Source: an uncultured Candidatus Saccharibacteria bacterium
Lineage (GTDB): Bacteria > Patescibacteriota > Minisyncoccia > Phycocordibacterales > PALSA-1337
DNA length: 64,000 bases
Assembly (NCBI GenBank): GCA_964495685.1
Contig: CAZBVQ010000001.1
Location: 169,521-233,520, forward strand
Direction of reading: 5' to 3'
Positions 3,988 through 60,387 of this stretch are shown here, piece after piece. The notes below the pieces were generated by a model. That model searched no databases. It was not told the origin of the DNA and worked only from the letters and a program-made list of their open reading frames with translations. The stretch's first letter is position 1, and every line of letters begins with the position of its first letter. Position numbers and translations under genes: made by a program.

Positions 3988-4891
3988 TATAGTTTCGTAT
4001 CATATGTATTCATACGTTTCAGTCAGACATGGTCTCGCATTCATCGCCGGCGCTATGGTGGTCGCTGCTCTGGTTATGTCAGTCGACTATCTCAATTCAT
4101 ATATCAGTCAGCATATACCCACATTCCCTTTGTGGGTGCTCCCGGGAAGTATCGGCGTTATCAGCATGCTGATCGTATTCACTGTCAGACGACGATTGCT
4201 CGAATCAGATTTTCTCAAATTTCAATTTGTCGATGTGGTCACACACAAGTTCCGTACACCACTCACGCATATCAAGTGGTCTGCTGAGGCGCTCCGATCT
4301 GAGACTGATGCACAGGCGCGAGCTCGTGCTCTCGATGTGATCGAGCAGGCAGATGGGCGATTGTTCGAGATGACCGAGAGTTTGGTCGGATTGTCACGGG
4401 CTGATGATCGGATGTATCGATATGCATTCGTCCCCGAGAATATCGTCGACGTGCTCAATGAGACATTGGCCGTCGTCGAAGATGAGGCACGCGCCAAACA
4501 CGTACGTTTCGTGTTGCATATTCAAGACCGGTTGCCGCATGTTCTGGTCGATCGCAAACGTATCCAGTTCGTCTTGCAGATGATTGTAGAGAATGCGGTT
4601 GTCTATTCGCGGGCATCGAGCAGTGTACATATCGATGTCGAGCAACGGCGTGCATTCATATACATTGCCGTACGTGATACAGGTATCGGTATTTCTCCTG
4701 TTGACATGTCGCGATTGTTCTCACGATTTTTCCGGGCTTCCAATGCAGCAGAAGTCCACACCGAAGGTTTGGGTATCGGATTGTCAGTCTCCCGTGACAT
4801 TATGAAGCGTCATGGAGGTGATCTGTGGGCCGAATCTGCTGGCACAGGCAAGGGGTCAACATTCTATATGAAGCTTCCTCTCGAGAAGTGA
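3956..4891 (+). CDS. Sensor histidine kinase (paralog of upstream kinase; start may be the ATG at 4004)
   Basis: Two TM helices, H-box VTHKFRTPLTHIKW, and G-box GLGIGLSVSRDIMKRHGGDLWAESAGTGKGSTF. It overlaps the upstream kinase by 32 nt at the annotated start. Confidence 0.8.
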   Translation: MQMTARRQSDNIVSYHMYSYVSVRHGLAFIAGAMVVAALVMSVDYLNSYISQHIPTFPLWVLPGSIGVISMLIVFTVRRRLLESDFLKFQFVDVVTHKFRTPLTHIKWSAEALRSETDAQARARALDVIEQADGRLFEMTESLVGLSRADDRMYRYAFVPENIVDVLNETLAVVEDEARAKHVRFVLHIQDRLPHVLVDRKRIQFVLQMIVENAVVYSRASSSVHIDVEQRRAFIYIAVRDTGIGISPVDMSRLFSRFFRASNAAEVHTEGLGIGLSVSRDIMKRHGGDLWAESAGTGKGSTFYMKLPLEK

Positions 4892-5007
4892 GGTGGTCAT
4901 CAGGTGGGCGTACCATTTCCTTTCTGGCCATTTTCTGTATAATCAGCCCATGACTTCATTAGGTCACCAGCAATCACATACTCCCAAGAAAGGGGGCAAG
5001 CATACGA

Positions 5008-6872
5008 TGCCGTCACGTATGAATTTCCTCAACATTGTACTTATCGTGGTACTTGGTTTTTTCCTCATTATAGGTGTGTATGCCGAATTTGGTCGTTCGG
5101 ATACTGATTCGAGTCGGGTGTCTATCTCAGTCCTAGCTACTGATATCGAAAAAGGTCAGGTGTCACGTCTCAGCGTCAACGGCGATCAGGTCACCGCTGA
5201 ATATGTCGATGCATCTGTCAAAATTGCTCAGAAGGAATCAGACTCATCTCTTTCGGAGAGTCTCATACGTTTCGGTGTGACGCAGAAACAATTGGCTTCG
5301 ACGACTATTACCGTGAATGATCCTAGCGGACTAGGATATTGGCTCGGTCAGCTCGCACCATTCTTGGCACCCATCATCTTCCTCGTATTCTTCATCTGGA
5401 TCCTCTCGCGCCAAGTCAAAGGTGCTGGCGTCCAAGCACTCTCATTCGGTCAGTCCAAGGCGCGTATCACCATGCCTGATGACAAGAAGCAGAAGGTGAC
5501 GTTCAAGGATATCGCTGGCGCAAAAGAAGCCAAGCAAGAATTGTCGGAGATCGTGGACTTCCTGAAGAATCCGCGCAAGTTCATCGAGATTGGTGCAGAA
5601 ATCCCCAAGGGTGTGCTCCTCATGGGTGCACCAGGTACCGGTAAGACACTCCTTGCTCGCGCAGTTGCTGGCGAGGCAAATGTCGCATTCTTCTCCATTT
5701 CAGGATCTGAATTCGTCGAGATGTTCGTCGGTGTAGGAGCGTCTCGTGTTCGTGATCTATTCAAGATGGCCAAGGAGGCGGCGCCAGCTATTGTCTTCGT
5801 AGATGAAATTGATGCAGTCGGTCGTGCTCGTGGCTCTGGTATGGGTGGTGGCAATGACGAGCGTGAACAAACGCTCAACCAAATTCTAGTCGAAATGGAT
5901 GGTTTCGAACCCAATGAGAAGGTCATAGTCATGGCGGCCACCAACAGACCTGATGTGCTCGACCCAGCCCTGCTTCGTCCAGGACGTTTCGATCGTCGTG
6001 TCACTATCGATCTGCCTGACAGGGGAGATCGTCAGGAGATTCTCAAGATTCATGGTGCCAAGAAGCAGTTGGCTGAGGATGTGAATATTTCCGTTGTCGC
6101 TGAGCGTACCCCTGGATTCTCTGGTGCAGATCTGGCTTCGCTCATGAATGAAGCGGCAATCCTGGCTGCGCGTGAAGACCGCAAGAAGATAGGGCAGTTC
6201 GATCTGATCCGTTCTATCGAGAAGGTCATGCTCGGGCCTGAGCGCCGTAGTCACGTCTTGTCTGTACAAGAAAAAGAGATTACGGCATATCATGAGGCCG
6301 GTCACGCTATAGTCGCCTCAGTTCTTCCGCATGCTGATCCGGTGCACAAGATTTCTATCATCTCTCGTGGACGTGCTGCTGGGTATACCTTGAAATTACC
6401 GCTGGAAGATCGCAAGCTCCAGTCGCGTAAGGAGTTCCTCGATGATATCGCCGTTTCACTCGGCGGATATGTTGCGGAGCGTATGATATATGATGATTTC
6501 ACTACTGGTGCTTCAAATGACCTCCAAGTCTCTACTTCTTTGGCTCGCGCCATGGTTACGCAGTACGGTATGTCAGAGAAGATTGGTCCGGTGGCACTCG
6601 AGAGTCCAGCGGGTAAAGTACTCTTCGGTCAGGGAGTTTCAGATCGCGATTATTCAGAGAAGGTTGCTGCCGAAGTCGATGCTGAGGTTACGCGCATCAT
6701 GACCGAGGCACGCACTCTCGCTGAGCAGACACTCAAGGAGCATGAGAAAGCGTTTGAAGCAGTAACACAGAGGTTGGTCGAGAAGGAGACGGTTGAACGT
6801 GATGAATACGAGGCGATCATTGCTGCGCACGGGATTAAGATCAAGAAGAAGGAGGAGGTGAAAGTTGTGTAG
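5008..6872 (+). CDS. ftsH: ATP-dependent zinc metalloprotease FtsH (ORF opens at 4893; ATG at 5008 with RBS-like AAGGGGG is the more likely start)
   Basis: Walker [19 protein letters not shown] and AAA SRH region, with zinc site [12 protein letters not shown] helix and a second hydrophobic segment are present at the N-terminus. Confidence 0.95.
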
Positions 6873-7495: not shown

Positions 7496-9961
7496 TTATT
7501 CAAAATGCGCCTCTTTTCCGTACTGCTCAGCCGCTTTCTTGAGTAGGGGATATTTGTTGAGCATCGCATCTTCACTTATTAATCTGATCGCCTCTGTTCG
7601 TGCCGCTTCGACCATCTTCAAATTTTTGAGTGCCTCCATGGCGACGTCGGAGACGCCCCATTGTCGTAGACCAGAAAGTTCGCCGGCACCACGTTGTGCG
7701 AGATCGAGCTCGGCCAGCTCGAAGCCATTCTTGGCAGTTTGGAGCGCCTTGAGACGCTCCAGGGATTTGGCGGAATTGGTTTCGGTGAATGCGTAACAAT
7801 ACGCTTGGTGACTACTGCGCATGACACGGCCGCGGAGCTGGTGGAGTTGTGAGAGGCCAAATCGTTCTGCACCTTCGATAATAATGACAGTGGCATTGGG
7901 TACATTGACGCCGACTTCGACGACTGAGGTGGCGCAGAGAATATCTATTTTTCCATTCTTGAAATCATCCATGACAGCATCTTTGTCTTCAGGTTTCATT
8001 TTGCTGTGGAGAATACCGATTTCGTAGTGCGGAAATACTGAACGTTTGAGGCGTTTTGCTTCTTCTTTGACTGACTTGGCGATGACGGCTGCCTCTTTGT
8101 CGGGATCTGGCTCATCGATACGTGGACAGATGACATAAAGTTGTCGACCAGCTTCGAGTTCGTGGCGGATTTTGGTATAAGTTTCGTCACGCTTATCAGG
8201 TCTAACAAGTTCGGTAATTATTGGCTTACGACCAGCAGGGGATTGATCGATGAGAGTAAGGTCGAGGTCGCCGTACATTGTTAATGCTAATGTGCGCGGA
8301 ATGGGTGTGGCGGTCATTGAAAGGAGATGTGGAGCGATAGTATCTTTGCGCACCAATTTCCTGCGCTGTGCGATACCGAAACGATGTTGCTCATCGATGA
8401 TGGCGTAAGCAAGATTTTTAAACTTGACTGACTTTTGAATAAGGGCATGTGTGCCTATAAGAACTGAAATGGAGCCTTCTTCAACCCACTTGAGAAGTTG
8501 CGAACGAGAAATATCGGTCCAACCCTTGGGGTTTACCTTGGAAGGAAATTTATAACAGCCGGAACCGGTGATGAGGCCAATCTGTATGGGCATGTAGGAG
8601 AAATATTTCACGAATGACTCGAATTGTTGGGTGGCGAGGATTTCGGTGGGGCACATGTAGGCGACTTGGAGTGGGCCACGGCGAAGAGCGTTTGTTACAA
8701 CCGCGACCTCAGAAGGAATACGGCTCTTGCCGACGCGCGTCAGGGCCTGCTGGCCCTGCGCTATGCTCGCGCCGTCGCGCTCCGCAGTGTCGGCTCGAAC
8801 CGATTCCTTCTGAGGTCGTGACGTCATGACGGCGTATGCGGTGGCTGCGGCAACGGCGGTCTTGCCGGAGCCGACATCTCCTTCGAGGAGGCGTGACATG
8901 GCAGAGCCGCGCTTCATGTCGGTCATAATGGCGTCGATGGCATGCTGTTGGGCATCGGTGGCGACGAAGGGGAAGCGGCGCACGAATTCACGGACATGCT
9001 CGATGTCGGTCTCAATGGTGAAAGCGGGATGCTTCTCATATTCGCGGCGAGCTTGCTGACGCGCGAGCTGGATCATAAATATTTCTTGGAATGAAAAACG
9101 TTTGCGCGCGGCGAGGGCGTCGTCATTATTCATGGGTGTATGAATCCAGATGAGAGCGGTTTTGAGGGTTGGTAGATGATATTTTTCGAGAATGTCGGCA
9201 GGAATGGGGTCGGCGAGCTGGTCGAGGATGCCACTCTTGAATACTTTTTGCAGAGAATGATACATCCAGAGAGAGGTGATGCCGCGGGATTCGCTGTAGA
9301 CGGGATAGAGATTGTGAGATGCACCCGTGTCGCCGAAGAGGGAGTCGCCGACGCCGGTAGGGAGTTTATCGACGAGTTCGAGTTTGGGGTTGGAGAAGTA
9401 GAGTTTTCCGGTAGCATTAGGGACAAGAGTCTCCTCACCCACGATCGACTCGGCTCGCACAACAGAACCGCTCGCCGAGTCGTCTTTTCTCAGCGTCGCC
9501 TGTAGCGGTATGTCTGTTCCTTGATTCCGCGACGCTTCCGAAGAGGGTTCGGAAACTCTGTCCCCAATGCCACCGCTCGCCGATTTCTTCGGTCTTCGTT
9601 CGCTGACTTTGCCTTCGATGCGTACGAGGGCCCCTTCGGGGGTCATCTTGGCGATGTAGGGCTGGTTGAACCAGGTACACTGGATGCGACCAGTCTCGTC
9701 TTCGACGTAGGCAGTGGCCATGGTTATTTTGGTGCGGAATCCTTTGCTGGCTTTGAGGCTGGTGATTTTGCCGTAGATGACGGCAGTGTCACCTTTCTTG
9801 AGTGAGTCGATGGAGCGTGCCTCAGCAGTGTCGCCGTAGCGGACAGGGAAATGATAGAGCAAATCTTCGACGGTATGAACGCTGAGCTTCTTGAGCGCGG
9901 CCTTCTGGATGGGGGTGATGCGGAAGTATTCAGAGACGGGTATGTCGGGAGTGAGGGGCAT
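7496..9961 (-). CDS. recG: ATP-dependent DNA helicase RecG (ORF extends to 10012; likely start MPLTPDIP at ~9961)
   Basis: N-terminus L..L.GVG....KL..LGI.TV.DLL.H.P.RY-like, Walker A GDVGSGKTAVAA, DEQHRFG, MTATPIPRTLALT. An in-frame insert of about 39 aa is encoded by a palindromic element at 8704..8818. Confidence 0.9.
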   Translation of the reverse strand: MPLTPDIPVSEYFRITPIQKAALKKLSVHTVEDLLYHFPVRYGDTAEARSIDSLKKGDTAVIYGKITSLKASKGFRTKITMATAYVEDETGRIQCTWFNQPYIAKMTPEGALVRIEGKVSERRPKKSASGGIGDRVSEPSSEASRNQGTDIPLQATLRKDDSASGSVVRAESIVGEETLVPNATGKLYFSNPKLELVDKLPTGVGDSLFGDTGASHNLYPVYSESRGITSLWMYHSLQKVFKSGILDQLADPIPADILEKYHLPTLKTALIWIHTPMNNDDALAARKRFSFQEIFMIQLARQQARREYEKHPAFTIETDIEHVREFVRRFPFVATDAQQHAIDAIMTDMKRGSAMSRLLEGDVGSGKTAVAAATAYAVMTSRPQKESVRADTAERDGASIAQGQQALTRVGKSRIPSEVAVVTNALRRGPLQVAYMCPTEILATQQFESFVKYFSYMPIQIGLITGSGCYKFPSKVNPKGWTDISRSQLLKWVEEGSISVLIGTHALIQKSVKFKNLAYAIIDEQHRFGIAQRRKLVRKDTIAPHLLSMTATPIPRTLALTMYGDLDLTLIDQSPAGRKPIITELVRPDKRDETYTKIRHELEAGRQLYVICPRIDEPDPDKEAAVIAKSVKEEAKRLKRSVFPHYEIGILHSKMKPEDKDAVMDDFKNGKIDILCATSVVEVGVNVPNATVIIIEGAERFGLSQLHQLRGRVMRSSHQAYCYAFTETNSAKSLERLKALQTAKNGFELAELDLAQRGAGELSGLRQWGVSDVAMEALKNLKMVEAARTEAIRLISEDAMLNKYPLLKKAAEQYGKEAHFE
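8704..8818. repeat. Intragenic GC-rich palindromic element (family A) with 16 nt terminal inverted repeats CGACCTCAGAAGGAAT, in frame within recG
   Basis: The perfect TIRs bracket a core CGAGCATAGCGCAGGGCCAGCAGGCCCTGACGCGCGTCGG that is shared with the element in comF. Local GC is much higher than the flanking sequence, and spurious ORFs appear on both strands (8614..8829, 8624..8821). Confidence 0.75.
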
Positions 9962-10075
9962 GGGGATAGTATATAGGGAAAAAGGGAGGGATGGAAAGAT
10001 TATGTAATACACAATTTCTCCACAAATTCAAAAGGCGCTTGCATTGATGCCCCGTGATATGATACAGGTATTCTC

Positions 10076-12568: not shown

Positions 12569-12655
12569 CGGAGACGGTGGGATTCGAACCCACGAGGGAG
12601 TTTCCCCCCTAACACCTTAGCACGGTGCCGCTTTCGACCACTCAGCCACGTCTCC
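12569..12655 (-). tRNA. tRNA-Ser (GCU)
   Basis: Class II tRNA on the minus strand: GGAGACG acceptor, anticodon loop GTGCTAA (anticodon GCU), long variable arm, T-arm GTGGG-TTCGAAT-CCCAC. Confidence 0.85.
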
Positions 12656-12763: not shown

Positions 12764-12848
12764 GGAGAGATGGGTGAGTGGTTTAAACCAGCGGTTTACT
12801 AAACCGCCGACCTGCAAAGGTCCGCGAGTTCGAATCTCGCTCTCTCCG
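12764..12848 (+). tRNA. Class II (Ser-type, G73) tRNA with apparent anticodon ACU (unusual)
   Basis: GGAGAGA acceptor, D-arm, anticodon arm GCGGT-TTACTAA-ACCGC, 18 nt variable arm, T-arm GAG-TTCGAAT-CTC, discriminator G. The anticodon positions 34-36 read ACT. Confidence 0.6.
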
Positions 12849-15204: not shown

Positions 15205-16404
15205 GTGTCAATGAAAACTATTACCGACAAAGCTCGTATCGAGGAGATGTTCGCTCGTGGCACACTCGTCGAAGCGTATCCTTCCAAGGACGAGCTCATG
15301 AAGAAGCTCCTCTCGGGAGAGCGCATCAAGATCTACTATGGTCTCGATCCGACACACACCGCTATTCACCTCGGTCATGCCAAGAACATGATTTTCCTCG
15401 AGGAGTTGCGTGAGCTCGGTCATGAAGTTGTCATTCTTTTTGGTGACTTCACGGCTACGATAGGGGACCCGTCAGACAAAGCGGCTACCAGGAAACAGCT
15501 CACCACCGACGAGGTCAAGAAGAATATGTCGACATGGCTTACACAGATCAAGCCCCTGGTCAATTTCACTGACAAAGATAATCCGGCTACAGTTGTCACC
15601 AATTCCACCTGGCTTTCAAAGCTCAATTTTGCTGACGTCTTGGATTTGGCCTCAAATTTCACGGTCCAGCAAATGCTTGAGCGCGACATGTTCCAGAAAC
15701 GCCTCAAAAATAATTCACCGATTCACGTCCACGAATTTATGTATCCGCTGATGCAAGGATATGACAGTGTTGCCATGGATGTTGATGCTGAACTCTGTGG
15801 CACCGATCAGACCTTCAATGCGCTCGCTGGTCGCACGCTGGTCAAACGTTACAAAAATAAAGACAAATTCGTTCTCGCTCTCAACCTTGTTGCCAATCCC
15901 AAAACGGGTGAGCTTATGTCCAAGTCAAATGGTACGGGCGTATTCATCGATCAGCCAGCCAACTCACTTTTTGGCGCACTGATGGCGTTGCCGGATCCGA
16001 TGATTGAGCCGTTGTTCGTCAATTGCACACGTATTCCGATGTCAGAAAAGGATGGGCTCATGGCCGCCGGGCCAAGATCAGCCAAGGCACGCGTGGCTTT
16101 CGATATTGTGAAGCGACTCCATGGTGAGAAAGCAGCGCAGGAAGCAGAAAAAGCATTCGAAGATACATTCGCCAAGGGTGGTGTGCCTGATGATGTGCAA
16201 GAAGTGAAGCTTGGTGGTGATTCTGTCGCCGAAGCACTAGTCAAGGCGGGCGTCATTCCTTCCAAGGCAGAGTGGCGACGACTCATTGATGGTGGTGGTA
16301 TCAAGACCGAAGATGATGAGAAGATTACCGATTCACATTTCAAGCCGACAAAAACAATGATTCTCAAAGTGGGGAAGAGGAGGTTTGTGAAGGTTGTTGT
16401 CTAA
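15205..16404 (+). CDS. tyrS: Tyrosine--tRNA ligase (ATG at 15211 likely start)
   Basis: HIGH motif (YYGLDPTHTAIHLGH) and KMSKS motif (GELMSKSNGTG). Confidence 0.95.
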   Translation: MSMKTITDKARIEEMFARGTLVEAYPSKDELMKKLLSGERIKIYYGLDPTHTAIHLGHAKNMIFLEELRELGHEVVILFGDFTATIGDPSDKAATRKQLTTDEVKKNMSTWLTQIKPLVNFTDKDNPATVVTNSTWLSKLNFADVLDLASNFTVQQMLERDMFQKRLKNNSPIHVHEFMYPLMQGYDSVAMDVDAELCGTDQTFNALAGRTLVKRYKNKDKFVLALNLVANPKTGELMSKSNGTGVFIDQPANSLFGALMALPDPMIEPLFVNCTRIPMSEKDGLMAAGPRSAKARVAFDIVKRLHGEKAAQEAEKAFEDTFAKGGVPDDVQEVKLGGDSVAEALVKAGVIPSKAEWRRLIDGGGIKTEDDEKITDSHFKPTKTMILKVGKRRFVKVVV

Positions 16405-17258
16405 TGCGCCACCGACATCCCGCGCACGTTCTTGAAATCCGCTTTTTTCAGTGTCTCAATCGCTTGATACATAGTGCCGCCGGTAGTGATGACATCATCG
16501 ATGACGACTATAGGAGTGTTCCGGTCAAATCGTGAAGCCACTTCCTCATTCACGTCAAACAAATCATGACTGGTACGCACGCGCTCGGCGCGGTTTTTCT
16601 TTTTCTGTTCAGAATTGCGATCGACACGAGTAAGGAGATTATTTTCGCAGGTAAATAGAGATTGGTCCGCTCGGCTCCGTAGTCGATCTATTTCATTGGT
16701 GAGCAATTCACACTGATTATACCCACGCTGATGGCGTCGACGTGTCGTAATCGGCATGGGGAGCAGGAGTGTCTGGGCAGGAAGTGTTCCGAACCGACAC
16801 TGCGGAGCCTCGAGTGCCTGTTCGAGAGGCGAGCATAGCGCAGGGCCAGCAGGCCCTGACGCGCGTCGGTGAGGAACAGCTTCCTGCCCAGACACTCCCA
16901 TCTCCCTCAACATACTCCACAGCGCATACCCTGCAATCTCGACAGCTTCACGGGAACTTTTTTCTTTGATGAGCCAGATGAGACGCGATACGCGCGCATC
17001 TTTGTATGCGAACACGGAACGAGTACCGGGAAGATCGAATGCTAATCCAGAATAATCGGGCGCTGGAGGAAGTGTGCGCAGTGCGTCGACAGGATTCATG
17101 CTCAAGAGATCTTTCTCAGTATCAGAAATAGGGAATAGGGCATCCAATAGTACGTTGTATAAGATTGAGATGAATGACATGCGCCCAGTATAGCAACGGG
17201 TCTTGAAGGCGACGTCAGATTCAGGGTATAGCTTGTGAATATCGGTAGTTATTGCCAT
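16401..17258 (-). CDS. comF: ComF-family phosphoribosyltransferase-domain protein
   Basis: C-terminal PRTase motif VVIDDVITTGGT, in the ComFC/amidophosphoribosyltransferase-like family. It carries an in-frame 123 nt palindromic element (16771..16893). Confidence 0.8.
   Translation of the reverse strand: MAITTDIHKLYPESDVAFKTRCYTGRMSFISILYNVLLDALFPISDTEKDLLSMNPVDALRTLPPAPDYSGLAFDLPGTRSVFAYKDARVSRLIWLIKEKSSREAVEIAGYALWSMLREMGVSGQEAVPHRRASGPAGPALCSPLEQALEAPQCRFGTLPAQTLLLPMPITTRRRHQRGYNQCELLTNEIDRLRSRADQSLFTCENNLLTRVDRNSEQKKKNRAERVRTSHDLFDVNEEVASRFDRNTPIVVIDDVITTGGTMYQAIETLKKADFKNVRGMSVAH
16771..16893. repeat. Intragenic GC-rich palindromic element (family A copy 2) with 14 nt terminal inverted repeats GTCTGGGCAGGAAG, in frame within comF
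   Basis: Shares the core ...CCGACACTGCGGAGC...GCGAGCATAGCGCAGGGCCAGCAGGCCCTGACGCGCGTCGG with the recG copy in reverse orientation. At 123 nt it is exactly 41 codons. Confidence 0.75.
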
Positions 17259-18391
17259 TGCTACAGCGTATATTTACCTGTACACTTACCTCCATGGGCT
17301 TCTTTTCCTCACTTTTCAAGAAAGAAACCAGCGTTTTGGGCGTGGATATAGGATCATCGGCCATCAAGGTCGTTCAGATCAAGAAAAAGCGCGGTCGTGC
17401 CGTACTTGAGACGTACGGCGAGTTGGCGTTGGGTCCTTATGCGGGAGTCGAAATCGGTCGAGCTACACAGATTTCGGCTGACAAAATCATCGAAGCTATC
17501 AAAGATATTCTTAAAGAATCAAAGACTACGACGGGTATGTGCGGTGTGGCGTTACCATTATCATCGAGTCTCATTTCGTTCATTTCCATCCCTCCTGTGC
17601 CTGAGAAACAGATGAGTGACGCGATAACACTCGAAGCACGCAAATACATCCCTGTGCCCCTCTCGGAAGTCCTCCTCGATTGGTCTATTATCCCGAAGGA
17701 AGATTCGTACGTGAATGAAGATGAAGCAGTCAAATCTGAGAAACAGGGTAGCGATGTGCTCGTCGTGGCAATCCACAATCAGTACATCAATGATTATCAA
17801 GCCATCATGGCAGGGAGTAATCTCACTCCAAGTTTCTATGAGATCGAAATTTTCAGTTCTATCCGTGCGGTCGTCGATCAGGGTATCTCGACAGTGATGA
17901 TTATTGACATGGGGGCACGATCGACCAAGTTGTATATTGTCGAACGGGGCATCCTGCGTGCATCTCACATCATCAACAAAGGCAGCCAAGATATTACACT
18001 GGCATTATCGAAGGCGATGAGTATCACCGTGAATGACGCGGAAAATATGAAGCGTACCCACGGTCTCAAGGGTGGCCCTGAATATCGTGAGCTGACGGAA
18101 ATTATTACGGTCAACCTTGATTATATGTTTTATGAAGCCAACGCATCACTGCTCAACTATCAGAAGAAGTTCAACAAAAATGTCAGCAAGGTCATTCTGA
18201 CCGGTGGGGGAGTGCTCCTCAAAGGGTTCACTGACTTGGCGAAAATTAGTTTCCAAACAGATGTGGTATATGCCGATCCGTTCGGTAAACTCGAGACACC
18301 TGCTTTTCTTGCTGAAGAATTCGCCCAAGCAGGCCCCGAATTCGCCGTTGCTATCGGCGTCGCTCTCCGCCGCCTCTCAGAACTTGAGTAA
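17252..18391 (+). CDS. pilM: Type IV pilus assembly protein PilM (likely start ~17294)
   Basis: Actin-like ATPase fold with N-terminal VLGVDIGSSAIKVVQ, first gene of a pilMNOP-like set. Confidence 0.85.
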   Translation: MPLLQRIFTCTLTSMGFFSSLFKKETSVLGVDIGSSAIKVVQIKKKRGRAVLETYGELALGPYAGVEIGRATQISADKIIEAIKDILKESKTTTGMCGVALPLSSSLISFISIPPVPEKQMSDAITLEARKYIPVPLSEVLLDWSIIPKEDSYVNEDEAVKSEKQGSDVLVVAIHNQYINDYQAIMAGSNLTPSFYEIEIFSSIRAVVDQGISTVMIIDMGARSTKLYIVERGILRASHIINKGSQDITLALSKAMSITVNDAENMKRTHGLKGGPEYRELTEIITVNLDYMFYEANASLLNYQKKFNKNVSKVILTGGGVLLKGFTDLAKISFQTDVVYADPFGKLETPAFLAEEFAQAGPEFAVAIGVALRRLSELE

Positions 18392-18394
18392 GAG

Positions 18395-18490
18395 CCCTTA
18401 GCGACACTCTGCCGATATGAACTCGGTACGTATGCCTAACGCACATTTACCACAACGTAACCTTCATATCGGTAGATGTGTCGCTAAGGG
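18395..18490. repeat. Long imperfect inverted repeat (about 27 nt arms) between pilM and pilN
   Basis: CCCTTAGCGACACTCTGCCGATATGAA ... TTCATATCGGTAGATGTGTCGCTAAGGG. Confidence 0.5.
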
Positions 18491-18550
18491 CGCTGTATTG
18501 TTATACACATAGCCGTACTTTGTTCATTCCTGCTATACTTCTAGGGAACT

Positions 18551-19195
18551 ATGGAAACCAAATTCCAAACCTCATTTATCCCCAAGAGGCCACTCATACC
18601 TACAAGCGGGCTCAATCCGGCCGCGCCCAAGCGGAGCTTCAGCTATTTCATGGCGATTGCAGTGCTACTCTTCATCATTTCTATCGGTGCTGCCGGTGGT
18701 AGTTATTTCTGGAAGTCATATCTTGAGACAGCCCAGATAGGGTACAAAACCCAGTTGGCCCAACGTGAAAAACAGTTCAACCCCAATCTCATCGAAGATT
18801 TGAAGCGTCAGAACGTCAAAATAGACACAGGCAAACAGCTTCTTGCAAACCATATTGCCGTCTCGCACATTTTCGATATCATCGGTCGCCTGACCATCGA
18901 AGACGTCCGCTTCATGAGCATGGAGATGACCACTGGCGCTACCAAGAATGAAGGCATCAAGATTGCCCTCAAGGGATATGGCACCACATTGAGTGCTGTC
19001 GCGTTCCAGTCAGACGTCCTCGGTCAGCTCGAACGATACGGTCTGCGCAAGGTCGTCAAAAATCCCATTTTGAGTGATCCGGCCTTGGATACCAATGGAT
19101 TGGTAGCTTTTGGGATGACTGCCACCGTCGATCCAGTCAGTCTCTCGTATGAGAAGAACCTTGCAGCGTCGACGGCGACCACCACTTCACCATAG
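18551..19195 (+). CDS. PilN-like pilus assembly protein (single TM)
   Basis: Position after pilM, with an N-terminal TM helix and a periplasmic coiled region. Confidence 0.6.
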   Translation: METKFQTSFIPKRPLIPTSGLNPAAPKRSFSYFMAIAVLLFIISIGAAGGSYFWKSYLETAQIGYKTQLAQREKQFNPNLIEDLKRQNVKIDTGKQLLANHIAVSHIFDIIGRLTIEDVRFMSMEMTTGATKNEGIKIALKGYGTTLSAVAFQSDVLGQLERYGLRKVVKNPILSDPALDTNGLVAFGMTATVDPVSLSYEKNLAASTATTTSP

Positions 19196-19197
19196 AT

Positions 19198-19794
19198 ATG
19201 AATCGCAATATTACCGCAACAATCTTGATCGTTTTGGCAGCAGGCATATACCTGACATTTACGCGTGCCAAGTTGGCTGAAGTCAATGCTGTCCGTGGGG
19301 TCAATGACCAATATCTCTCAGCCATCGCAAATGCCGACAAACTCATCAAGGTGCGTGATATTGTCCTCAAGCAGGACCGATCGATTTCGGATACCGATCG
19401 AGATCGCCTCGACAAGATGCTCCCTGATACTGTCGACAACATTCGTCTCATTATCGATCTCAATAGTATTGCCCTGAGACATGGATTCCCTCTACGAAAT
19501 ATCAAGGCATCAGCAAATTCTGCCAAACCTACTGGTCCGGCGGTGCCTCTGCCTCAAGATGCATCTGCACGTGCGGGCGAGGGCGGTACCATACCAGTGC
19601 CGGTACTCGATACGGTGACGGTTTCTTTCGGGGTGACGGCCTCATATCAGCAATTCATCGAATTACTCAGGGATCTCGAAGCGAATCTGCGAGTGATGGA
19701 TGTCACCAGACTCACCTTGACTGCCAATCCGACCACTGCGGGCACGTATGATTTCGCGGTCGAACTCCGGACATATTGGCTCCGTCAACAATAA
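19198..19794 (+). CDS. PilO-like pilus assembly protein
   Basis: Single N-terminal TM, position in the cluster. Confidence 0.55.
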   Translation: MNRNITATILIVLAAGIYLTFTRAKLAEVNAVRGVNDQYLSAIANADKLIKVRDIVLKQDRSISDTDRDRLDKMLPDTVDNIRLIIDLNSIALRHGFPLRNIKASANSAKPTGPAVPLPQDASARAGEGGTIPVPVLDTVTVSFGVTASYQQFIELLRDLEANLRVMDVTRLTLTANPTTAGTYDFAVELRTYWLRQQ

Positions 19795-19796
19795 CC

Positions 19797-20132: not shown

Positions 20133-20140
20133 AGGCAGGA

Positions 20141-21898: not shown

Positions 21899-21919
21899 TC
21901 TATATGATATAATGGTCCC

Positions 21920-22309: not shown

Positions 22310-22311
22310 AG

Positions 22312-23370: not shown

Positions 23371-23377
23371 TAGTCAT

Positions 23378-24595: not shown

Positions 24596-24645
24596 ATAGG
24601 GCCTTTTTCTTATCCACAGTATCGATGAAATCCCCCTGTGCGGGG

Positions 24646-24660
24646 GAGTGGTATAATAGG
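24646..24660 (+). promoter_or_regulatory. Candidate -10 element (GGTATAATAGG) preceded by hairpin TCCCCC-TGTGC-GGGGGA, upstream of the major pilin gene
   Basis: Extended -10-like TGGTATAAT about 70 nt upstream of the pilin ATG. Confidence 0.35.
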
Positions 24661-25253: not shown

Positions 25254-25281
25254 TATACATGTAGTGTATCCGACAAAAGGT

Positions 25282-25818: not shown

Positions 25819-25821
25819 TCC

Positions 25822-28705: not shown

Positions 28706-29248
28706 ATGTCCACATTGCAAACTACACATCACAGACTACACAGAGGGTACACACTCTTATTTGCAGTGATTACGTCAGCGGTTGTTCTCGGCGTGGCGGT
28801 ATTCATTGTGACGATCAGCAAGAAACAGTACGCGCTTTCGGTGACGGCACGTGATTCGATGTATGCACTCTATGCAGCAGATAGTGCCATGGAATGTGCG
28901 TCGGTCGCTGACCTTGCGACGACGACTGGTTCCAATGCTCCGGCTACAGTCGTCCTCCATTGTAACAACGCTGATTCTGCAGGTGTCGCATTCGGTGGGC
29001 CTATATCCAATCCTGATGCCACTACGTGGCCGAGTGGGTTTGGCCTCTATCAGGCGCCAGACATTCTCGTCGTGTTGAATGATGGTACATGCGCCAAAGT
29101 GACTATCACTGATGGATACTATATTGACGGAACTGTCACGAAACACAAGACAGTTGTCGACTCACGTGGATACAATTATTGTGATGGAAGTGGTCCCAAG
29201 ACCAGCTCTCGCACCGTCGAGCGCGCACTCCGCCTGACGTATAGGTGA
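28706..29248 (+). CDS. Pilin-like protein (PilX-like)
   Basis: GYTLLFAVITSAVVLGVAVF N-terminal helix; last gene of the pilus cluster. Confidence 0.6.
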   Translation: MSTLQTTHHRLHRGYTLLFAVITSAVVLGVAVFIVTISKKQYALSVTARDSMYALYAADSAMECASVADLATTTGSNAPATVVLHCNNADSAGVAFGGPISNPDATTWPSGFGLYQAPDILVVLNDGTCAKVTITDGYYIDGTVTKHKTVVDSRGYNYCDGSGPKTSSRTVERALRLTYR

Positions 29249-29258: not shown

Positions 29259-31377
<2,119 letters not shown>

Positions 31378-45164: not shown

Positions 45165-46559
45165 ATGGCAATGAAATCGAGATTGACTCTCGCGGTCGCT
45201 TTTGTCCTGTTGTTTATATGCGCAGGCTCGCTTGGCATGTTTTGGTCCGAGAATGTCGGGGCTGTCGATGCCTCCTCGACAAGCTTTTTTGTTCGTCAAA
45301 ATATCCTGCCCGTGGGCTCCAATAGTTATCCAGGTTCGACTGGTGCGGAACCGTTTTCGACGTCTACATCATTCAAGCTGGTCGGTGCAGGTAGCGAAAC
45401 GGCTGTAGGAACATCCACCTCTTCATCATTTGGTGTCATGGGCGGATTCTTGCGCAGTCTGTACTTCGGTCCAGCGCCACTCTACAATCAGATACATTAT
45501 CATTGGCGCAACGACGATGGCTCAGAGGCGGCGGCTACATCAAAAACAAGTGGTACACCTGATACGGACATTACGTCCTTGGCAAAATCGACCACAGTGC
45601 GTCTGCGCATTGAGATCTCGAATGAAGGCGGTACGAAGCTCGGGTACGCTTCCCAGCAGTTTCGTCTCGAATATGGTCTCAAGTCGACTACGTGCGCGGC
45701 TATAGTCTCGTGGACTGACGTCGGTGCTGCATCTGGAGATTGGGATCCATCGAATTCGAGCAACTTGACTGACGGAAATGACACGACCAATATTGCCGTA
45801 TCTACGGGCGGTGTCGCTGATGAAAATCATACGTTTCTCACCCCGAATGGTGGGGCCAAGGATACGGGTAGTCAGACTGCTGCTGTCAGTGTGACGAGTG
45901 AGCAGTTTATCGAATTGGAATACTCAATTCAGGCCCTATCGGCCGCAACTGATGGGGGAACGTATTGTTTCCGTGTGACGAATGCAGGTGGAGCGACTAC
46001 TCTCTACTCATATACTGCGTATCCACAGGCAACACTCGCATCTTCTGGGGGATACTTATATTTTTCACTCGATGGATCTACAGAGGCCTTCGGTAACATT
46101 ACTCCAGCTGTGCTAGCGGCGACTTCGAGTATTTTGACGGCGAGGACAGACAATTCGACTGGTTTCAATATAACTATTCAGCGAGCAGATTCTACAGGCA
46201 CCATGTCTTCTGGCTCGGTGTATATTCCTGACAAGACTGCATGGGTCCCGGGCGTGAATACGTCATCTGCAGGTAACGCAACAGCTTCGACTACTGAGCC
46301 GCAGACGTTGCAATTTCGTATACGTAATACAGGTACCGATGCGGCCAACTACTCATCTGCATGGTGGGGAACAGACGATACGACAGCCTCTGCCTTGTTC
46401 GCGGGTATCCCATCTACGGCTAGGAATATCGTCGACAGGTCGAGCTCTGCGGTCTCTACTACGACAGCATACGTCTTGTACAACTTGACTGTGCCAGTAA
46501 CTCAGCAAGCGGGCAGTTATTCGGGTAGTATTACCTATACAATTACAGCGAACCCTTGA
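45165..46559 (+). CDS. Secreted Thr/Ser-rich surface protein with C-terminal WxL-like domain
   Basis: Signal peptide. C-terminus AWWGTDD...GSYSGSITYTITANP resembles the WxL-domain C-terminal consensus, and the C-terminal half is paralogous to 46775..47470. Confidence 0.55.
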   Translation: MAMKSRLTLAVAFVLLFICAGSLGMFWSENVGAVDASSTSFFVRQNILPVGSNSYPGSTGAEPFSTSTSFKLVGAGSETAVGTSTSSSFGVMGGFLRSLYFGPAPLYNQIHYHWRNDDGSEAAATSKTSGTPDTDITSLAKSTTVRLRIEISNEGGTKLGYASQQFRLEYGLKSTTCAAIVSWTDVGAASGDWDPSNSSNLTDGNDTTNIAVSTGGVADENHTFLTPNGGAKDTGSQTAAVSVTSEQFIELEYSIQALSAATDGGTYCFRVTNAGGATTLYSYTAYPQATLASSGGYLYFSLDGSTEAFGNITPAVLAATSSILTARTDNSTGFNITIQRADSTGTMSSGSVYIPDKTAWVPGVNTSSAGNATASTTEPQTLQFRIRNTGTDAANYSSAWWGTDDTTASALFAGIPSTARNIVDRSSSAVSTTTAYVLYNLTVPVTQQAGSYSGSITYTITANP

Positions 46560-59088: not shown

Positions 59089-60387
59089 TTAAGACTTAGA
59101 AAGACTTATTACTTTTTTTGTTAGGATCAGCTTACTTTTCAAGTTTGATAGAAGTTCACGTTTTTCTTCCGCTGTGCCCTCCGTGAGTACATGCTCCGCG
59201 TACTGTTTAGGATTATATTCGACTGCAATCTTTGGTTGTTTGATTCCATAGAATTGCTTTTGAAATCTCATCATTCGATCCTGTTCCTGATCAAACTTTC
59301 TTTTTATAAGTTTCTCGTCAATCTCGACTTTCTCAATTAAGGTGACTAGCTGTTTTATCAGCTCTTCCTCACGAACATATCCGCATTTGCAGCTAAGATC
59401 TTTTGATCTATTGCACCCATAGTATATGTAGTGAGCCTCGCCACCATTGGCAAGTTTCTTCCATTTCTCATCTGCCACCACTCCTGACCCGCACAATCCG
59501 CACGTCATGATTCTCGAGAAAGCGAACTCTTTCCGTTCATGGACGATATCTGACCGTTTTAGATGTTCTTGGACTTTCTCATATAGTTCACGAGTGATGA
59601 GTGGCTCATGTCGGCCTGTATACCAATTGCCACTCTTAGCTGGGTACTCGAATTGTCCGTAGAAAAACGGCGTTTGAAGCAATCGATAGATATTGCTCAG
59701 CGTCAGTGGTTTATTGCTTGTCGCGCTTCTAAAGTTTAGGTCGAACTTCAGCCAGTTGTATATTTTTCTGCCTGACCATTTTTCGTGCGCTACTTTCTCA
59801 AACATTCTCCTCATGACCGGTCCTCGTTCCGGATCGATGATCACGTATCCTTTTCGGTCAAGACGCTTCTCGTTTAGATATCCCGTAGGTGCAGGGGCTG
59901 GCCATAGACCCATCTCACAGCGAGTTCTAAGACCTCGCTTCACGTTTACGCTTTTGTTGTCATTTTCAAGCTTCGCCTGACTACATAGGATCATGAGAAG
60001 AAACTTATCGCTTGGCGAGTTTGTGAATTTTTGTCCGTACGTTTTTATCTCAATTAGTAGTTTCTGATCCATTAGGTCCACAAGGCTACCTAGATCGCCC
60101 GCATTTCTTGAAAGGCGGTCAGGATGCCATACCAGAATGCCGTTATATCTACCTGTCTGAATATCGGACAAAATCTCCTTGAATACAGGGCGCTGACCTG
60201 ATTCCTTGGCTGAGTGCGCTTCACGACGGATATCGATAATATCCATTCCATCACGCTCAGCGATCTGTAACATCTCTTTTACCTGTGAATCGATTGAAAG
60301 GGCTTGTTTTTCCTCCGCCTCGGTCGACTTGCGGGCATAGAGAACGTACTTCATTTTCACCGGTTCGATTTTTTGTTTGTTTTCCAT
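59089..60387 (-). CDS. Large serine recombinase (serine integrase)
   Basis: N-terminal resolvase catalytic domain (YARKST...SIDSQ), a recombinase domain, and a zinc-ribbon CGLCGS...C.C. Confidence 0.88.
   Translation of the reverse strand: MENKQKIEPVKMKYVLYARKSTEAEEKQALSIDSQVKEMLQIAERDGMDIIDIRREAHSAKESGQRPVFKEILSDIQTGRYNGILVWHPDRLSRNAGDLGSLVDLMDQKLLIEIKTYGQKFTNSPSDKFLLMILCSQAKLENDNKSVNVKRGLRTRCEMGLWPAPAPTGYLNEKRLDRKGYVIIDPERGPVMRRMFEKVAHEKWSGRKIYNWLKFDLNFRSATSNKPLTLSNIYRLLQTPFFYGQFEYPAKSGNWYTGRHEPLITRELYEKVQEHLKRSDIVHERKEFAFSRIMTCGLCGSGVVADEKWKKLANGGEAHYIYYGCNRSKDLSCKCGYVREEELIKQLVTLIEKVEIDEKLIKRKFDQEQDRMMRFQKQFYGIKQPKIAVEYNPKQYAEHVLTEGTAEEKRELLSNLKSKLILTKKVISLSKS

What the first reader, a model, noticed from the sequence alone, without database searches (positions are those of the whole stretch)
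8704..8818. RPE-like palindromic element inserted in frame inside recG
A 115 nt GC-rich element bounded by perfect 16 nt inverted repeats (CGACCTCAGAAGGAAT) sits inside the RecG helicase core. It lies between the Walker A motif and the following conserved segment and preserves the reading frame. The result is an insert of about 39 aa (…SRPQKESVRADTAERDGASIAQGQQALTRVGKSRIPSEV…). The same core sequence occurs in comF, which argues for a mobile or proliferating palindromic element that tolerates being translated. This resembles Rickettsia palindromic elements, which are rarely documented outside Rickettsiales.
Basis: seen in the sequence. Interest (0 to 1): 0.72.

Follow-up and report, generated by a model that had tools for sequence, protein, structure and literature searches.

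The report
In-frame palindromic repeat element in recG
A 115-base GC-rich hairpin-forming repeat sits in frame inside the RecG helicase gene of a Patescibacteria (candidate phyla radiation) bacterium, and copies of it occur in other genes and in related genomes, so it behaves like the "selfish DNA inside genes" known from Rickettsia but has a conserved folded core and stems partly copied from the host gene.

Summary
Window 8704-8818 is a 115-nt, 67% GC element with perfect 16-nt inverted arms. It lies in frame in recG between Walker A and motif Ia. A second copy lies in comF (16766-16898), in the opposite orientation.

The RPE-like reading is supported as "works like", not as family membership. 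Fourteen copies from Paceibacteria genomes and metagenomes share a 64-76-nt three-way-junction core and subterminal repeats (AAGGAAYCGG.../...TTCC). Beyond these, each copy has its own perfect stem.

The stem extensions overlap conserved host codons. Examples are RxKKP in the RecG wedge and YPPAD in a glycosyltransferase. One arm is therefore an inverted copy of host flank.

The arms co-evolve: there are two compensatory double substitutions between orthologous copies. G:U and A:C counts show no strand bias, and coding copies use three different frames. This points to a DNA-level palindrome, not an RNA or a selected peptide.

The closest RecG ortholog has lost the element, leaving a scar. AlphaFold predicts a disordered loop. 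There is no target-site duplication, no transposase in the window, and no Rfam match.

The best mechanism (inferred, not shown) is a non-autonomous palindromic repeat kept perfect and extended by replication template switching.

Novelty: a new variant of a known kind.

The parts
7496..10012 (-). recG ORF (838 aa), the host gene of the element
   Evidence: ORF; Pfam RecG_wedge, DEAD, Helicase_C, RecG_dom3_C; Patescibacteria RecG homologs, 60-83% identity
8704..8818 (-). Family-A palindromic element as delimited by the perfect inverted repeat (115 nt, 67% GC). The 'forward' orientation (CCGACA...GCGCGTCGG) is the minus strand, which is the sense strand of recG. It encodes RPQKESVRADTAERDGASIAQGQQALTRVGKSRIPSEV.
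   Evidence: I7; covariance-model hit 128.8 bits
8803..8818 (-). 5' arm in recG sense (CGACCTCAG + AAGGAAT). CGA CCT are the host Arg-Pro codons conserved in orthologs (S-R/K-P). AAGGAAT is the element's conserved subterminal repeat.
8704..8719 (-). 3' arm in recG sense (ATTCCTT + CTGAGGTCG), the exact reverse complement of the 5' arm
8730..8793 (-). Conserved core. P2 (GCCGAC/GTCGGC) closes a three-way junction with hairpins P3 and P4.
8769..8780 (-). P3 hairpin, short subtype (GCGC GACG GCGC). It is replaced by a 22-nt hairpin in the comF copy and in the L017 and L018 copies.
8737..8761 (-). P4 hairpin (GCGCAGGGCC AGCA GGCCCTG A CGC) with an AGCA loop and a bulged A. The stem covaries among copies.
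16766..16898 (+). Second family-A copy (133 nt) with perfect 19-nt arms GGAGTGTCTGGGCAGGAAG. It is antisense to its host gene comF and in frame (GVSGQEAVPHRRASGPAGPALCSPLEQALEAPQCRFGTLPAQTL).
   Evidence: I5; 111.5 bits
16794..16869 (+). Core of the comF copy (long-P3 subtype). It is identical to the recG copy over 15 + 41 nt.
16401..17258 (-). comF (ComF-family phosphoribosyltransferase) ORF, host of the second copy

Best explanation
The feature is one copy of a small, non-autonomous, GC-rich palindromic repeat family. I call it family A. It is specific to Paceibacteria (Patescibacteria) and lives at the DNA level.

Shown:
- The element has a conserved 64-76-nt core that folds as a three-way junction (P2, P3, P4).
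- It has conserved subterminal inverted repeats (AAGGAAYCGG... / ...CCGRTTCC).
- Outside these, it has a further perfect stem of 6-18 bp that is different in every independent copy.
- Copies sit in permissive, predicted-disordered loops of RecG (two sites), ComF and a GT4 glycosyltransferase, in either orientation and in three different reading frames. Another copy abuts the dnaB stop codon.
- The copy-specific stem overlaps host codons that are conserved in orthologs without the element. One arm is therefore host flank, and the other arm is an inverted copy of it.
- The arms change in concert.
- Cores can be identical within a genome (both L002 copies; the two window copies outside P3), while positional orthologs in other genomes differ. 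This is not universal: the two copies in L018 differ.
- The element can be lost by deletion, leaving a scar.

Inferred:
- The insert is transcribed and translated with RecG as a roughly 28-38-aa surface loop and is tolerated rather than useful.
- The perfect arms are made, corrected and extended by intramolecular template switching during replication. In this process the nascent strand folds back on the hairpin and copies its own flank. This explains the lack of a target-site duplication, the inverted host-flank copies and the paired substitutions.
- New copies arise either through an unidentified trans-acting enzyme that recognises the conserved core, or through template switching or gene conversion between copies.
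For: Repeat family and mobility:
- The 40-nt core occurs exactly twice in the window.
- Further copies lie at a second recG site (the wedge domain) in L001, L002, L004, L012 and L018, and at the helicase site in L002, L016, L017, L018 and L019.
- Another copy lies in a GT4 glycosyltransferase (L006). Another lies between recR and dnaB (L009).
- Covariance-model scores for these copies range from 70 to 130 bits.

Presence and absence:
- The closest RecG ortholog, P0001/L003, lacks the core but keeps the right-arm remnant CGTACTCCTGGAGGGG.
- The closest ComF ortholog, P0125/L015, lacks the element.

Structure:
- 89% of pair cells are paired, against 73% in shuffles.
- 23 of 35 pairs show double changes, a level reached by 0 of 500 shuffles.

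DNA level rather than RNA or peptide:
- G:U pairs (18) and A:C pairs (12) show no strand bias.
- Coding copies use frames f0 (recG), r0 (comF) and r1 (GT4) and give unrelated peptides.
- Compensatory changes are non-synonymous, for example GGCCAGCAGGCC (GQQA) to GGCGAGCACGCC (GEHA).

Host-derived arms:
- The L002 wedge left arm CGTGCGAAGAAACCTGTA encodes RAKKPV. It matches the site in L016 that lacks the core (CGGACGAAGAAACCTGCG, 14 of 18 nt), and L016 has no inverted copy.
- RRxKKP is conserved in orthologs without the insert.
- The L006 arm covers the GT4 YPPAD motif.

Concerted arms:
- The orthologous wedge copies in L001 and L002 differ at two left-arm positions, both synonymous. Both are matched by complementary, non-synonymous right-arm changes.
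- In the window, the left arm CGACCTCAG differs from the ortholog consensus CGNCCNAAG by three clustered changes. These make it the exact complement of the right flank CTGAGGT (present in the L002 copy; CTGAGAT in L016).

Within-genome identity:
- The L002 wedge and helicase cores are identical over 64 of 64 nt. The window and L002 helicase-site cores differ at 5 of 64 nt.

Tolerated loop:
- In the AlphaFold2 model, residues 402-437 have pLDDT below 50 and no secondary structure, between confident helicase elements.

No nearby transposase:
- Pfam scans of all 61 window ORFs found none.

Published precedent:
- In-frame RPEs (PMC10969869).
- Conversion-maintained coding palindromes (PMC6649704).
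- Template switching that creates and maintains perfect hairpins and produces compensatory pairs in one event (PMC8794818, abstract seen).
Against: - Copy number is low. There are only 2 copies in 64 kb. Exact-pattern scans found 2 loci among 185,579 species genomes and 6 true loci in JGI metagenomes (5 distinct places). An HMM of the insert peptide found essentially no other host proteins. Active proliferation is therefore modest.
- No transposase, no target-site duplication and no parent insertion sequence were found, so how new copies arise is unknown.
- The junction nucleotides (CATAGCGCA, TGACGCGCGTCGGC, GCCGACA) are strongly conserved across lineages with very different GC content. This is more than a passive palindrome needs. 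It hints at recognition by a protein or at an RNA function that I could not identify.
- Translation of the insert is inferred only from frame preservation.
- Template switching is inferred from mutation patterns in a handful of copies. Selection for pairing could give the same pattern.
- One apparently empty site (the L016 wedge) contains TTTCGGAGC, a possible remnant of an older copy.
- The AlphaFold model is only of moderate quality (mean pLDDT 62).
Confidence: 0.7

Rival explanations
1. The core is a functional structured RNA, such as a ribozyme, a protein-binding motif, an RNase III or processing site, or a small RNA. It would be carried in mRNAs and intergenic transcripts, and the variable outer stem would be a P1 helix maintained by selection on RNA folding.
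For: There is a three-way junction with invariant junction nucleotides and covarying stems. This includes UGC/GCA changing to UAC/GUA at the P3 base and GGCC/GGCC changing to GGCG/CGCC in P4. All recG copies are in the sense orientation. The fold is very stable as RNA, with z = -10.
Against: The comF and GT4 copies are antisense to their host genes, and the L009 copy is antisense to both neighbouring genes. G:U (18) and A:C (12) counts show no strand preference. Both strands fold equally well. There is no Rfam match even at E up to 10. By eye, the junction does not fit the hammerhead core, because C3, G5 and A6 are not conserved. A perfect 22-25-bp stem inside a coding region would be expected to harm mRNA stability and translation.
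Confidence: 0.12
2. A structure-specific enzyme (a transposase or recombinase encoded elsewhere in the genome) integrates the core into the apex of pre-existing hairpins or quasi-palindromes. This would resemble IS1397, which targets the loops of REP palindromes. The copy-specific perfect arms would then be the split target hairpin, not a product of later template switching.
For: Every independent copy is bracketed by a unique inverted repeat with no direct target duplication. Long perfect intergenic palindromes without a core exist in this genome, for example 29258-29299. Removing the core from the L009 copy leaves a perfect 18-bp hairpin right after the dnaB stop codon. The window arms CGACCTCAG/CTGAGGTCG resemble the P4 hairpin of another family (GACCTC AGCA GAGGTC in L018 comF). 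The conserved junction sequence would suit protein recognition.
Against: The site lacking the core (the L016 wedge) shows the host half of the arm but no palindrome. Orthologous helicase-site copies have different, imperfect outer stems, whereas the window's is perfect. This shows the arms were remodelled after insertion. A 36-nt perfect palindrome pre-existing in conserved coding sequence is unlikely. No candidate enzyme lies in the window.
Confidence: 0.12
3. The insert is a host-beneficial protein segment. On this view the peptide ...RDGASIAQGQQALTRVG... was recruited as a functional RecG loop, and the nucleotide palindrome is incidental.
For: The peptide is conserved in many RecG orthologs at two sites. 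The insert has persisted across a clade of about 80%-identical RecGs.
Against: The same DNA in comF and in GT4 is read in other frames and orientations, giving unrelated peptides. Nucleotide changes are compensatory for pairing but non-synonymous. The insert is predicted to be disordered. It was deleted in the closest ortholog P0001 and in P0005 and P0007. It was replaced by an unrelated hairpin insert in a 99.6-100% identical strain.
Confidence: 0.04
4. The element is an intervening sequence that is removed from the mRNA (intron-like) or skipped by the ribosome (translational bypass, as with the 'byp' palindromes of Magnusiomyces mitochondria). It would then not appear in the protein.
For: A stable hairpin brings the two flanks together. 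Bypassed palindromic inserts are known (mentioned in PMC6649704).
Against: All coding copies, from at least five independent insertion contexts, keep the host frame open with no stop codon. An excised or bypassed element would not need this. The copies occur in both orientations. The inverted-repeat-bounded length (115 nt) is not 3n, and removing it would shift the frame.
Confidence: 0.02

Closest known systems
Rickettsia palindromic elements (RPE-1 to RPE-10; Ogata et al. 2000, as summarised in PMC10969869)
   Same: Both are palindromic repeats of about 100-150 bp, present as several families. Both insert in frame into unrelated housekeeping genes as well as into intergenic DNA. Both are tolerated as extra peptide loops, occur in a reduced-genome host-associated bacterium, and have no associated transposase.
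   Different: The host phylum differs (Patescibacteria, not Rickettsiales). No sequence relationship was shown. Here the centre (a three-way-junction core) is the conserved part, while the outermost arms are copy-specific, perfect and partly host-derived. According to PMC6649704, RPE arms decay with time. Here the arms are kept or made perfect. Copy number appears much lower.
Bacterial MITEs (for example Correia/NEMIS, ERIC, and Nezha-type elements)
   Same: They are small and non-coding, have terminal or subterminal inverted repeats, fold into long hairpins, occur in multiple copies and occasionally form in-frame fusions.
   Different: There is no direct target-site duplication and no parent insertion sequence with matching ends. 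The outermost inverted repeat is not conserved between copies. It is an inverted copy of the flank.
Coding palindromes of Nematomorpha mitochondria and template-switch-generated hairpins (PMC6649704; PMC8794818)
   Same: Both are perfect inverted repeats inside functional protein-coding genes whose arms evolve in concert. Conversion by replication template switching is the proposed cause. Gain and loss is dynamic.
   Different: The mitochondrial palindromes have no shared mobile core, and both of their arms encode conserved protein. Here a conserved GC-rich core recurs at unrelated sites, and the arms lie in variable loops.
GC-rich palindromic clusters and hairpin elements of fungal and sponge mitochondria (for example yeast var1 GC clusters, recalled from memory; sponge repetitive hairpin-forming elements, PMC2800124, title and abstract only)
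   Same: They are short GC-rich hairpin-forming mobile repeats in compact genomes and are sometimes inserted in coding regions.
   Different: They occur in organelles, and the sequences are unrelated. The yeast clusters are reported to make short direct flank duplications (from memory, not checked).
REP/BIME elements with RAYT transposases
   Same: They are palindromic repeats recognised as DNA hairpins. They are maintained without an adjacent transposase at each copy.
   Different: REPs are 20-40 nt, extragenic and highly abundant. No RAYT (Y1 transposase) was found in the window.

Membership tests
Rickettsia palindromic elements (RPE) | Palindromic repeat of about 100-150 bp present in several copies per genome | tested here: met
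   The two window copies are 115 and 133 nt. There are two copies within the single recG gene of L002 and of L018.
Rickettsia palindromic elements (RPE) | In-frame insertion into unrelated protein-coding genes at structurally permissive sites | tested here: met
   Hosts are recG (two sites), comF and a GT4 glycosyltransferase. All remain open in frame. In the AlphaFold model the insert residues 402-437 have pLDDT below 50. The GT4 insert lies between the two Pfam domains. Translation itself is not testable here.
Rickettsia palindromic elements (RPE) | Sequence homology to an RPE consensus, and occurrence in Rickettsia or Rickettsiales | tested here: not met
   The organism is Patescibacteria/Paceibacteria. 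There was no match in Rfam, plasmids or phages. RPE consensus sequences themselves were not available for a direct comparison.
MITE (miniature inverted-repeat transposable element) | Terminal inverted repeats conserved among copies | tested here: inconclusive
   The subterminal AAGGAAYCGG.../...CCGRTTCC repeats are conserved in the GC-rich lineage. The outermost 6-18 bp of the stem differ in every copy.
MITE (miniature inverted-repeat transposable element) | Direct target-site duplication flanking the element | tested here: not met
   The flanks of the window recG, window comF and L002 wedge copies show no direct repeat. They are inverted instead.
MITE (miniature inverted-repeat transposable element) | A cognate autonomous insertion sequence or transposase with the same ends | tested here: not met
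   There is no transposase among the 61 window ORFs. The only recombinase is a large serine recombinase in an AT-rich island at 59089-60387. The rest of the roughly 700-kb genome could not be read.
REP/RAYT | 20-40-nt extragenic palindromes plus a Y1 (RAYT) transposase gene | tested here: not met
   The elements are 115-135 nt and mostly intragenic. There is no Y1_Tnp hit in the window.
Known structured RNAs and self-cleaving ribozymes (Rfam 15) | A significant covariance-model match | tested here: not met
   The gathering-threshold scan of the window returned only tmRNA and tRNAs. A scan at E up to 10 over 8600-8920 returned nothing.
Integron attC sites | Conserved R''/L''-L'/R' core sites at the ends, a variable centre, and a neighbouring integrase | tested here: not met
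   The architecture is the opposite, with a conserved centre and variable ends. There is no integron integrase in the window.
Template-switch (quasi-palindrome) conversion products | Clustered multi-nucleotide changes that make one arm the exact complement of the other, and paired substitutions arising together | tested here: met
   Between L001 and L002 there are two paired complementary substitutions in an 18-bp stem. Three clustered changes in the window's left arm create the complement of the right flank CTGAGGT (present in L002; CTGAGAT in L016). The L016 left side ACCTTTGCCGAC is the exact complement of its right side. The mechanism itself is not testable here.

The most novel reading that the evidence does not exclude
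Family A, together with look-alike families at the same protein loops, may represent a transposase-independent, self-templating class of mobile DNA. On this reading a conserved cruciform-forming core seeds itself at new sites. It then grows by replication template switching that copies host flank in inverted orientation. This process continually writes new perfect hairpins, and new peptide loops, into essential genes of Patescibacteria. Alternatively, the invariant junction is the recognition site of an undiscovered structure-specific nuclease or recombinase.
Probability: 0.25. Interest if true: 0.8.

Novelty: new variant of a known kind. Interest (0 to 1): 0.6.

Why it matters
Repeats that insert in frame into essential genes are textbook-rare and are essentially a Rickettsia story. 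Finding the same behaviour in Patescibacteria points to convergence in unrelated reduced genomes. Several hairpin-insert families occupy the same loops of RecG and ComF.

This offers an explanation for part of the lineage-specific insertions that make candidate-phyla-radiation proteins hard to align and annotate.

The unusual anatomy gives a concrete natural system for asking whether replication template switching can create, perfect and extend hairpins inside genes. That anatomy combines a conserved folded core with perfect stems that are partly inverted copies of conserved host codons, and paired substitutions between orthologous copies. The same system could show whether such hairpins can spread without a transposase.

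Practically, these inserts break assemblies. One MAG has a 100-N gap exactly at this site. They can also mislead homology-based annotation.

Tried and rejected
- Rfam scans at gathering threshold and at E up to 10 found no family. By eye, the junction CUGCGGA...GAGCAUA resembles a hammerhead core. I rejected this because C3, G5 and A6 vary among copies.
- A scan of viral contigs and blastn against plasmids and phages found nothing.
- A word-indexed protein search with the 44-aa insert peptide returned no candidates.
- An HMM of the insert peptide against 1.84 billion representative proteins gave only one real extra hit, a 92-aa fragment (P0121). The element is therefore rare in this frame outside RecG.
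- The exact-pattern scans were stricter than hoped. They found 2 genome loci and 9 metagenome loci, of which L007, L008 and L011 are chance matches in GC-rich genes.
- I considered a strand-specific RNA or single-stranded-DNA function based on G:U wobbles. A full count gave 18 G:U against 12 A:C, which is not significant.
- I considered the idea that the host-derived arm always lies on the same side of the element. It held for recG and comF, but the GT4 copy in L006 breaks it.
- I first scored L006 as intergenic. It is in fact in frame in a glycosyltransferase.
- I considered that P0001 is a never-occupied empty site. I rejected this because it retains the right-arm remnant, so it is a deletion derivative.
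- I considered adaptation of the element to stay open in all frames. Three of six frames are open across the 115 nt, which is what 67% GC predicts. This is my own calculation from the translations.
- I considered transposition as the cause of the difference between L001 and L018 at the helicase site. The mismatches cluster just downstream of the insert, which fits a recombination tract or allelic replacement, and L001 has an N gap there.
Full report
**1. The observation**

- Window 8704-8818 carries CGACCTCAGAAGGAAT and its exact reverse complement 83 nt apart (pair I7).
- The 115 nt are 67% GC, in a window of about 50% GC.
- The element lies in the minus-strand ORF 7496..10012. That ORF is RecG by Pfam and by homology to Patescibacteria RecG proteins.
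- Read in the recG frame, it gives RPQKESVRADTAERDGASIAQGQQALTRVGKSRIPSEV, between GSGKT (Walker A) and AYMCPTEILA (motif Ia).
- The second copy (16766-16898) is in frame in a ComF-family ORF. It has different perfect 19-nt arms, and it is inverted relative to its host gene.
- The recG element folds at -84 kcal/mol as RNA (z = -10) and -48 kcal/mol as DNA (z = -8.3).
- It is the most over-structured 120-nt stretch of the whole window.

**2. Anatomy**

- Aligning the two window copies and ten copies from related DNA shows a conserved core. Its layout is GCCGACA-YTDCGBAG-[P3 hairpin]-GAGYATA-GCGCA[P4 stem, AGCA/AGTA loop]TG-A-CGC-GC-GTCGGC.
- P2 (GCCGAC/GTCGGC) closes a three-way junction with hairpins P3 and P4.
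- P3 comes in a short subtype (GCGC GACG GCGC) and a long subtype (CCNCGAGTGCCTGTTCGAGNGG). The window has one of each.
- Outside P2, the GC-rich lineage shares subterminal repeats AAGGAAYCGGYYCRAG / CRAGRRBCGDRTTCC.
- Outside these, the stem continues perfectly for 6-18 bp with a sequence unique to each independent copy:
  - CGACCTCAG (window recG)
  - GGAGTGTCTGGGC (window comF)
  - CGTGCGAAGAAACCTGTA (L002 wedge)
  - GGCCG (L004)
  - CCAGCGGATAATTT (L006)
  - GGTTAAAAGTCTGAAGTC (L009)
- The structure is strongly supported. 89% of pair cells are paired against 73% in shuffles, and 23 of 35 pairs show double changes, a level reached by 0 of 500 shuffles.

**3. Organism and distribution**

- RecG and ComF homologs place the window in Patescibacteria/Paceibacteria, near Taylorbacteria and Parcubacteria.
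- The identical ComF protein is on a 700,686-nt contig.
- Exact-pattern scans found the core in 2 loci of the species-genome collection and in 6 true loci of JGI metagenomes (5 distinct places). Three further metagenome hits were chance matches. None were found in viral contigs, plasmids or phages.
- A covariance model built from ten copies recovered only these and four more in fetched recG loci. It found no further copy in the window.
- The host contexts are:
  - the recG helicase site (window, L002, L016, L017, L018, L019)
  - the recG wedge domain (L001, L002, L004/L005/L014, L012, L018)
  - comF (window)
  - a GT4 glycosyltransferase between its two Pfam domains (L006)
  - the recR-dnaB spacer, overlapping the dnaB stop codon (L009)
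  - a bare core without a stem (L010)

**4. Insert or ancestral segment?**

- In the RecG alignment, P0002, P0003, P0004, P0006, P0015 and P0022 carry ...SIAQ(G/S)QQALTRVG... at the helicase site.
- P0003, P0004, P0007, P0013 and P0016 carry it at the wedge site.
- Many orthologs have neither, and some have no loop at all (P0011, P0012, P0018, P0035).
- The closest ortholog, P0001 (83% identity; L003), lacks the core. Its DNA reads CCCG|TACTCCTGGAGGGG. This is the L002 sequence minus AAAGGAAT...AGTCG, and it keeps the right-arm remnant.
- The helicase-site copy is therefore ancestral to this clade and was later deleted in some members.
- The closest ComF ortholog, P0125 (L015), lacks the comF copy.
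- Two essentially identical strains (L018 and L001; flanks 100% and 99.6% identical) carry different hairpin inserts at the helicase site. The L001 assembly has a 100-N gap exactly there.

**5. At which level does it act?**

- Peptide: the same DNA is read as RDGASIAQGQQALTRVG in recG (frame f0), PHRRASGPAGPALCSPL in comF (r0) and ADARQKSTGFCAMSPATRLRNVG in GT4 (r1).
- Differences between copies preserve pairing but change amino acids. Examples are GQQA to GEHA, and TA...S(AGC) to IT...S(AGT).
- AlphaFold2 gives residues 402-437 pLDDT below 50 with no secondary structure, between confident helicase elements.
- The peptide is therefore not what is conserved.
- RNA: the element is sense in recG but antisense in comF, in GT4 and next to dnaB. 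G:U (18) and A:C (12) counts show no strand preference. Both strands fold equally well. Rfam has no match.
- Excision: every coding copy keeps the frame open. The 115 nt bounded by the inverted repeat is not a multiple of three.
- The evidence fits a double-strand-symmetric, DNA-level palindrome that is transcribed and translated along with its host. Translation is inferred.

**6. The unusual part: the arms**

- The L002 wedge left arm CGT GCG AAG AAA CCT GTA encodes RAKKPV.
- RRxKKP is conserved in orthologs with no insert.
- The L016 wedge site, which lacks the core, reads CGG ACG AAG AAA CCT GCG (14 of 18 nt identical) and has no inverted copy downstream.
- The right arm TACAGGTTTCTTCGCACG is therefore new DNA, an inverted copy of host flank.
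- The L006 arm CCAGCGGATAATTT covers the glycosyltransferase YPPAD motif, and its inverted copy encodes QNYPLG.
- The window arm starts at the conserved Arg-Pro codons of S-R/K-P.
- There is no direct target duplication.
- The arms evolve in concert.
  - Between the orthologous wedge copies of L001 and L002, two left-arm substitutions (both synonymous) are matched by the complementary right-arm substitutions (both non-synonymous). By my estimate, the chance of this placement is below 1e-3.
  - In L016, the left side ACCTTTGCCGAC is the exact complement of the right side.
  - At the helicase site, orthologous copies share an outer stem A(A/G)G(T/C)CCC / GGGG(C/T)T with an internal loop.
  - The window lacks 6 nt on the left. 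Its left arm CGACCTCAG differs from the ortholog consensus CGNCCNAAG by three clustered changes.
  - These changes make it the exact complement of the right flank CTGAGGT (present in the L002 copy; CTGAGAT in L016).
- These are the signatures described for template-switch mutations, which create and maintain perfect hairpins (PMC8794818). The same process was invoked for perfect coding palindromes in Nematomorpha mitochondria (PMC6649704).

**7. Mobility**

- The same core at unrelated sites shows copying.
- Cores within one genome can be identical. The L002 wedge and helicase cores match over 64 of 64 nt. The window recG and comF copies match over 15 + 41 nt.
- Positional orthologs differ. 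The window and L002 helicase-site cores differ at 5 of 64 nt.
- The short-P3 and long-P3 subtypes alternate at the same orthologous site.
- This indicates recent intragenomic copying or gene conversion between copies.
- No transposase is encoded in the window.
- How new copies arise is unknown. I consider two routes: template switching or conversion between copies, or an unidentified enzyme that recognises the invariant junction.

**8. Comparison with known systems**

- The element works like Rickettsia palindromic elements. These are in-frame, tolerated, multi-family palindromic repeats in a reduced genome (PMC10969869).
- It is not shown to be a member of that family.
- It fails the MITE criteria of a direct target duplication and a cognate insertion sequence.
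- It is unlike REP/RAYT elements, integron attC sites and any Rfam family.
- Its distinguishing features are a conserved centre, variable perfect ends, and host-derived arms.

**9. Verdict**

- It is a new variant of a known kind, in a phylum where I found no published description.
- The mechanism (template-switch maintenance and extension) is inferred from a small number of copies and needs a genome-wide census and population data.
- Interest: 0.6.

Noticed in passing
window 9409-9575 (-), recG residues ~142-202: The window's RecG carries a second, unrelated in-frame insert in the wedge domain (SEPSSEASRNQG...RKDDSASGSVVRAESIVGEE). It folds into a long imperfect hairpin (DNA fold z = -5.2). 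It has AlphaFold pLDDT of about 25 and is shared with P0001, P0002, P0005, P0011 and P0012. It is probably an older, decaying palindromic element of another family.
   Followed up: partly
window 45017-45113 and 46578-46676: Two copies of another ~99-nt hairpin repeat share a core (AAGCCGAAAATGTAGCCAGCGATCAGCGCTTTGAGGCTT) and have slightly different long stems. They flank the 464-aa ORF 45165..46559, which has no Pfam match. Both are intergenic.
   Followed up: partly
window 18391-18494: A ~104-nt near-perfect hairpin (31 paired bases per arm; z = -8.1) starts at the stop codon of the pilM-like gene 17252..18391. It may be a terminator or another palindromic element.
   Followed up: no
window 29258-29299: A perfect 42-nt palindrome with no spacer (TCCCAGGCCCGGCCTAGAATT|AATTCTAGGCCGGGCCTGGGA) lies between ORF 28706..29248 and the NAD-dependent DNA ligase gene 29302..31377.
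   Followed up: no
window ~58000-64000: GC content drops from about 50% to 35-43%, directly after a tRNA at 58129-58199. The region contains a large serine recombinase (59089..60387, minus strand) and a 970-aa ORF with no Pfam match that runs to the window end. This looks like an integrated mobile element or prophage at a tRNA.
   Followed up: no
window 52387-54333: The CTP synthase is 648 aa. Its GATase domain match spans 264 residues for a 190-position profile, so it carries about 75 extra residues. This may be another lineage-specific in-frame insert.
   Followed up: no
L018 4596-5366 (comF), insert around 4880-5010; also ComF proteins P0131, P0138, P0141, P0146, P0150, P0159, P0168 and P0132, P0134, P0137: The same ComF loop holds a different palindromic insert family in other Paceibacteria ('DTPSTSAEVAAGS...SPKRPENS' or, apparently in the other orientation, 'GNRFSGRFGG...TSAEVDGVSRK'). 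It folds at -108 kcal/mol with the same architecture. Its P4 (GACCTC AGCA GAGGTC GACGG) parallels family A (AGGGCC AGCA GGCCCT GACGC), which suggests a superfamily. Its stem also overlaps the host VVVIPMP codons.
   Followed up: partly
L001 (reverse complement) 4297-4396 and 4452-4590: A MAG labelled Saccharibacteria has a 100-N gap exactly at the recG helicase insertion site, with 55 nt repeated on both sides of the gap. After the gap comes an unrelated hairpin insert (CTGGCGAG...CTCGCCAG, -64 kcal/mol) where the 99.6-100% identical strain L018 has family A. This indicates allelic polymorphism and assembly breakage at these hairpins.
   Followed up: partly
L002 1340-1420: At the helicase site in L002 there is a partial tandem duplication of the element's left half (CCCGAAAGGAA-CTGGCCATTGCCGACATTACG followed by CCCGAAAGGAA-TCGGCTCGAGCCGACATTACGG). 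This shows slippage-type rearrangements within the element.
   Followed up: no
window 12569-12655 (-) and 12764-12848 (+): Two long-arm (85-87 nt) tRNA genes lie on opposite strands, oriented away from each other (divergent), and form a 30-nt 80% inverted repeat. In addition, tmRNA (1942-2321) lies next to smpB (1387-1836), and a type IV pilus gene cluster spans about 17250-28050.
   Followed up: no
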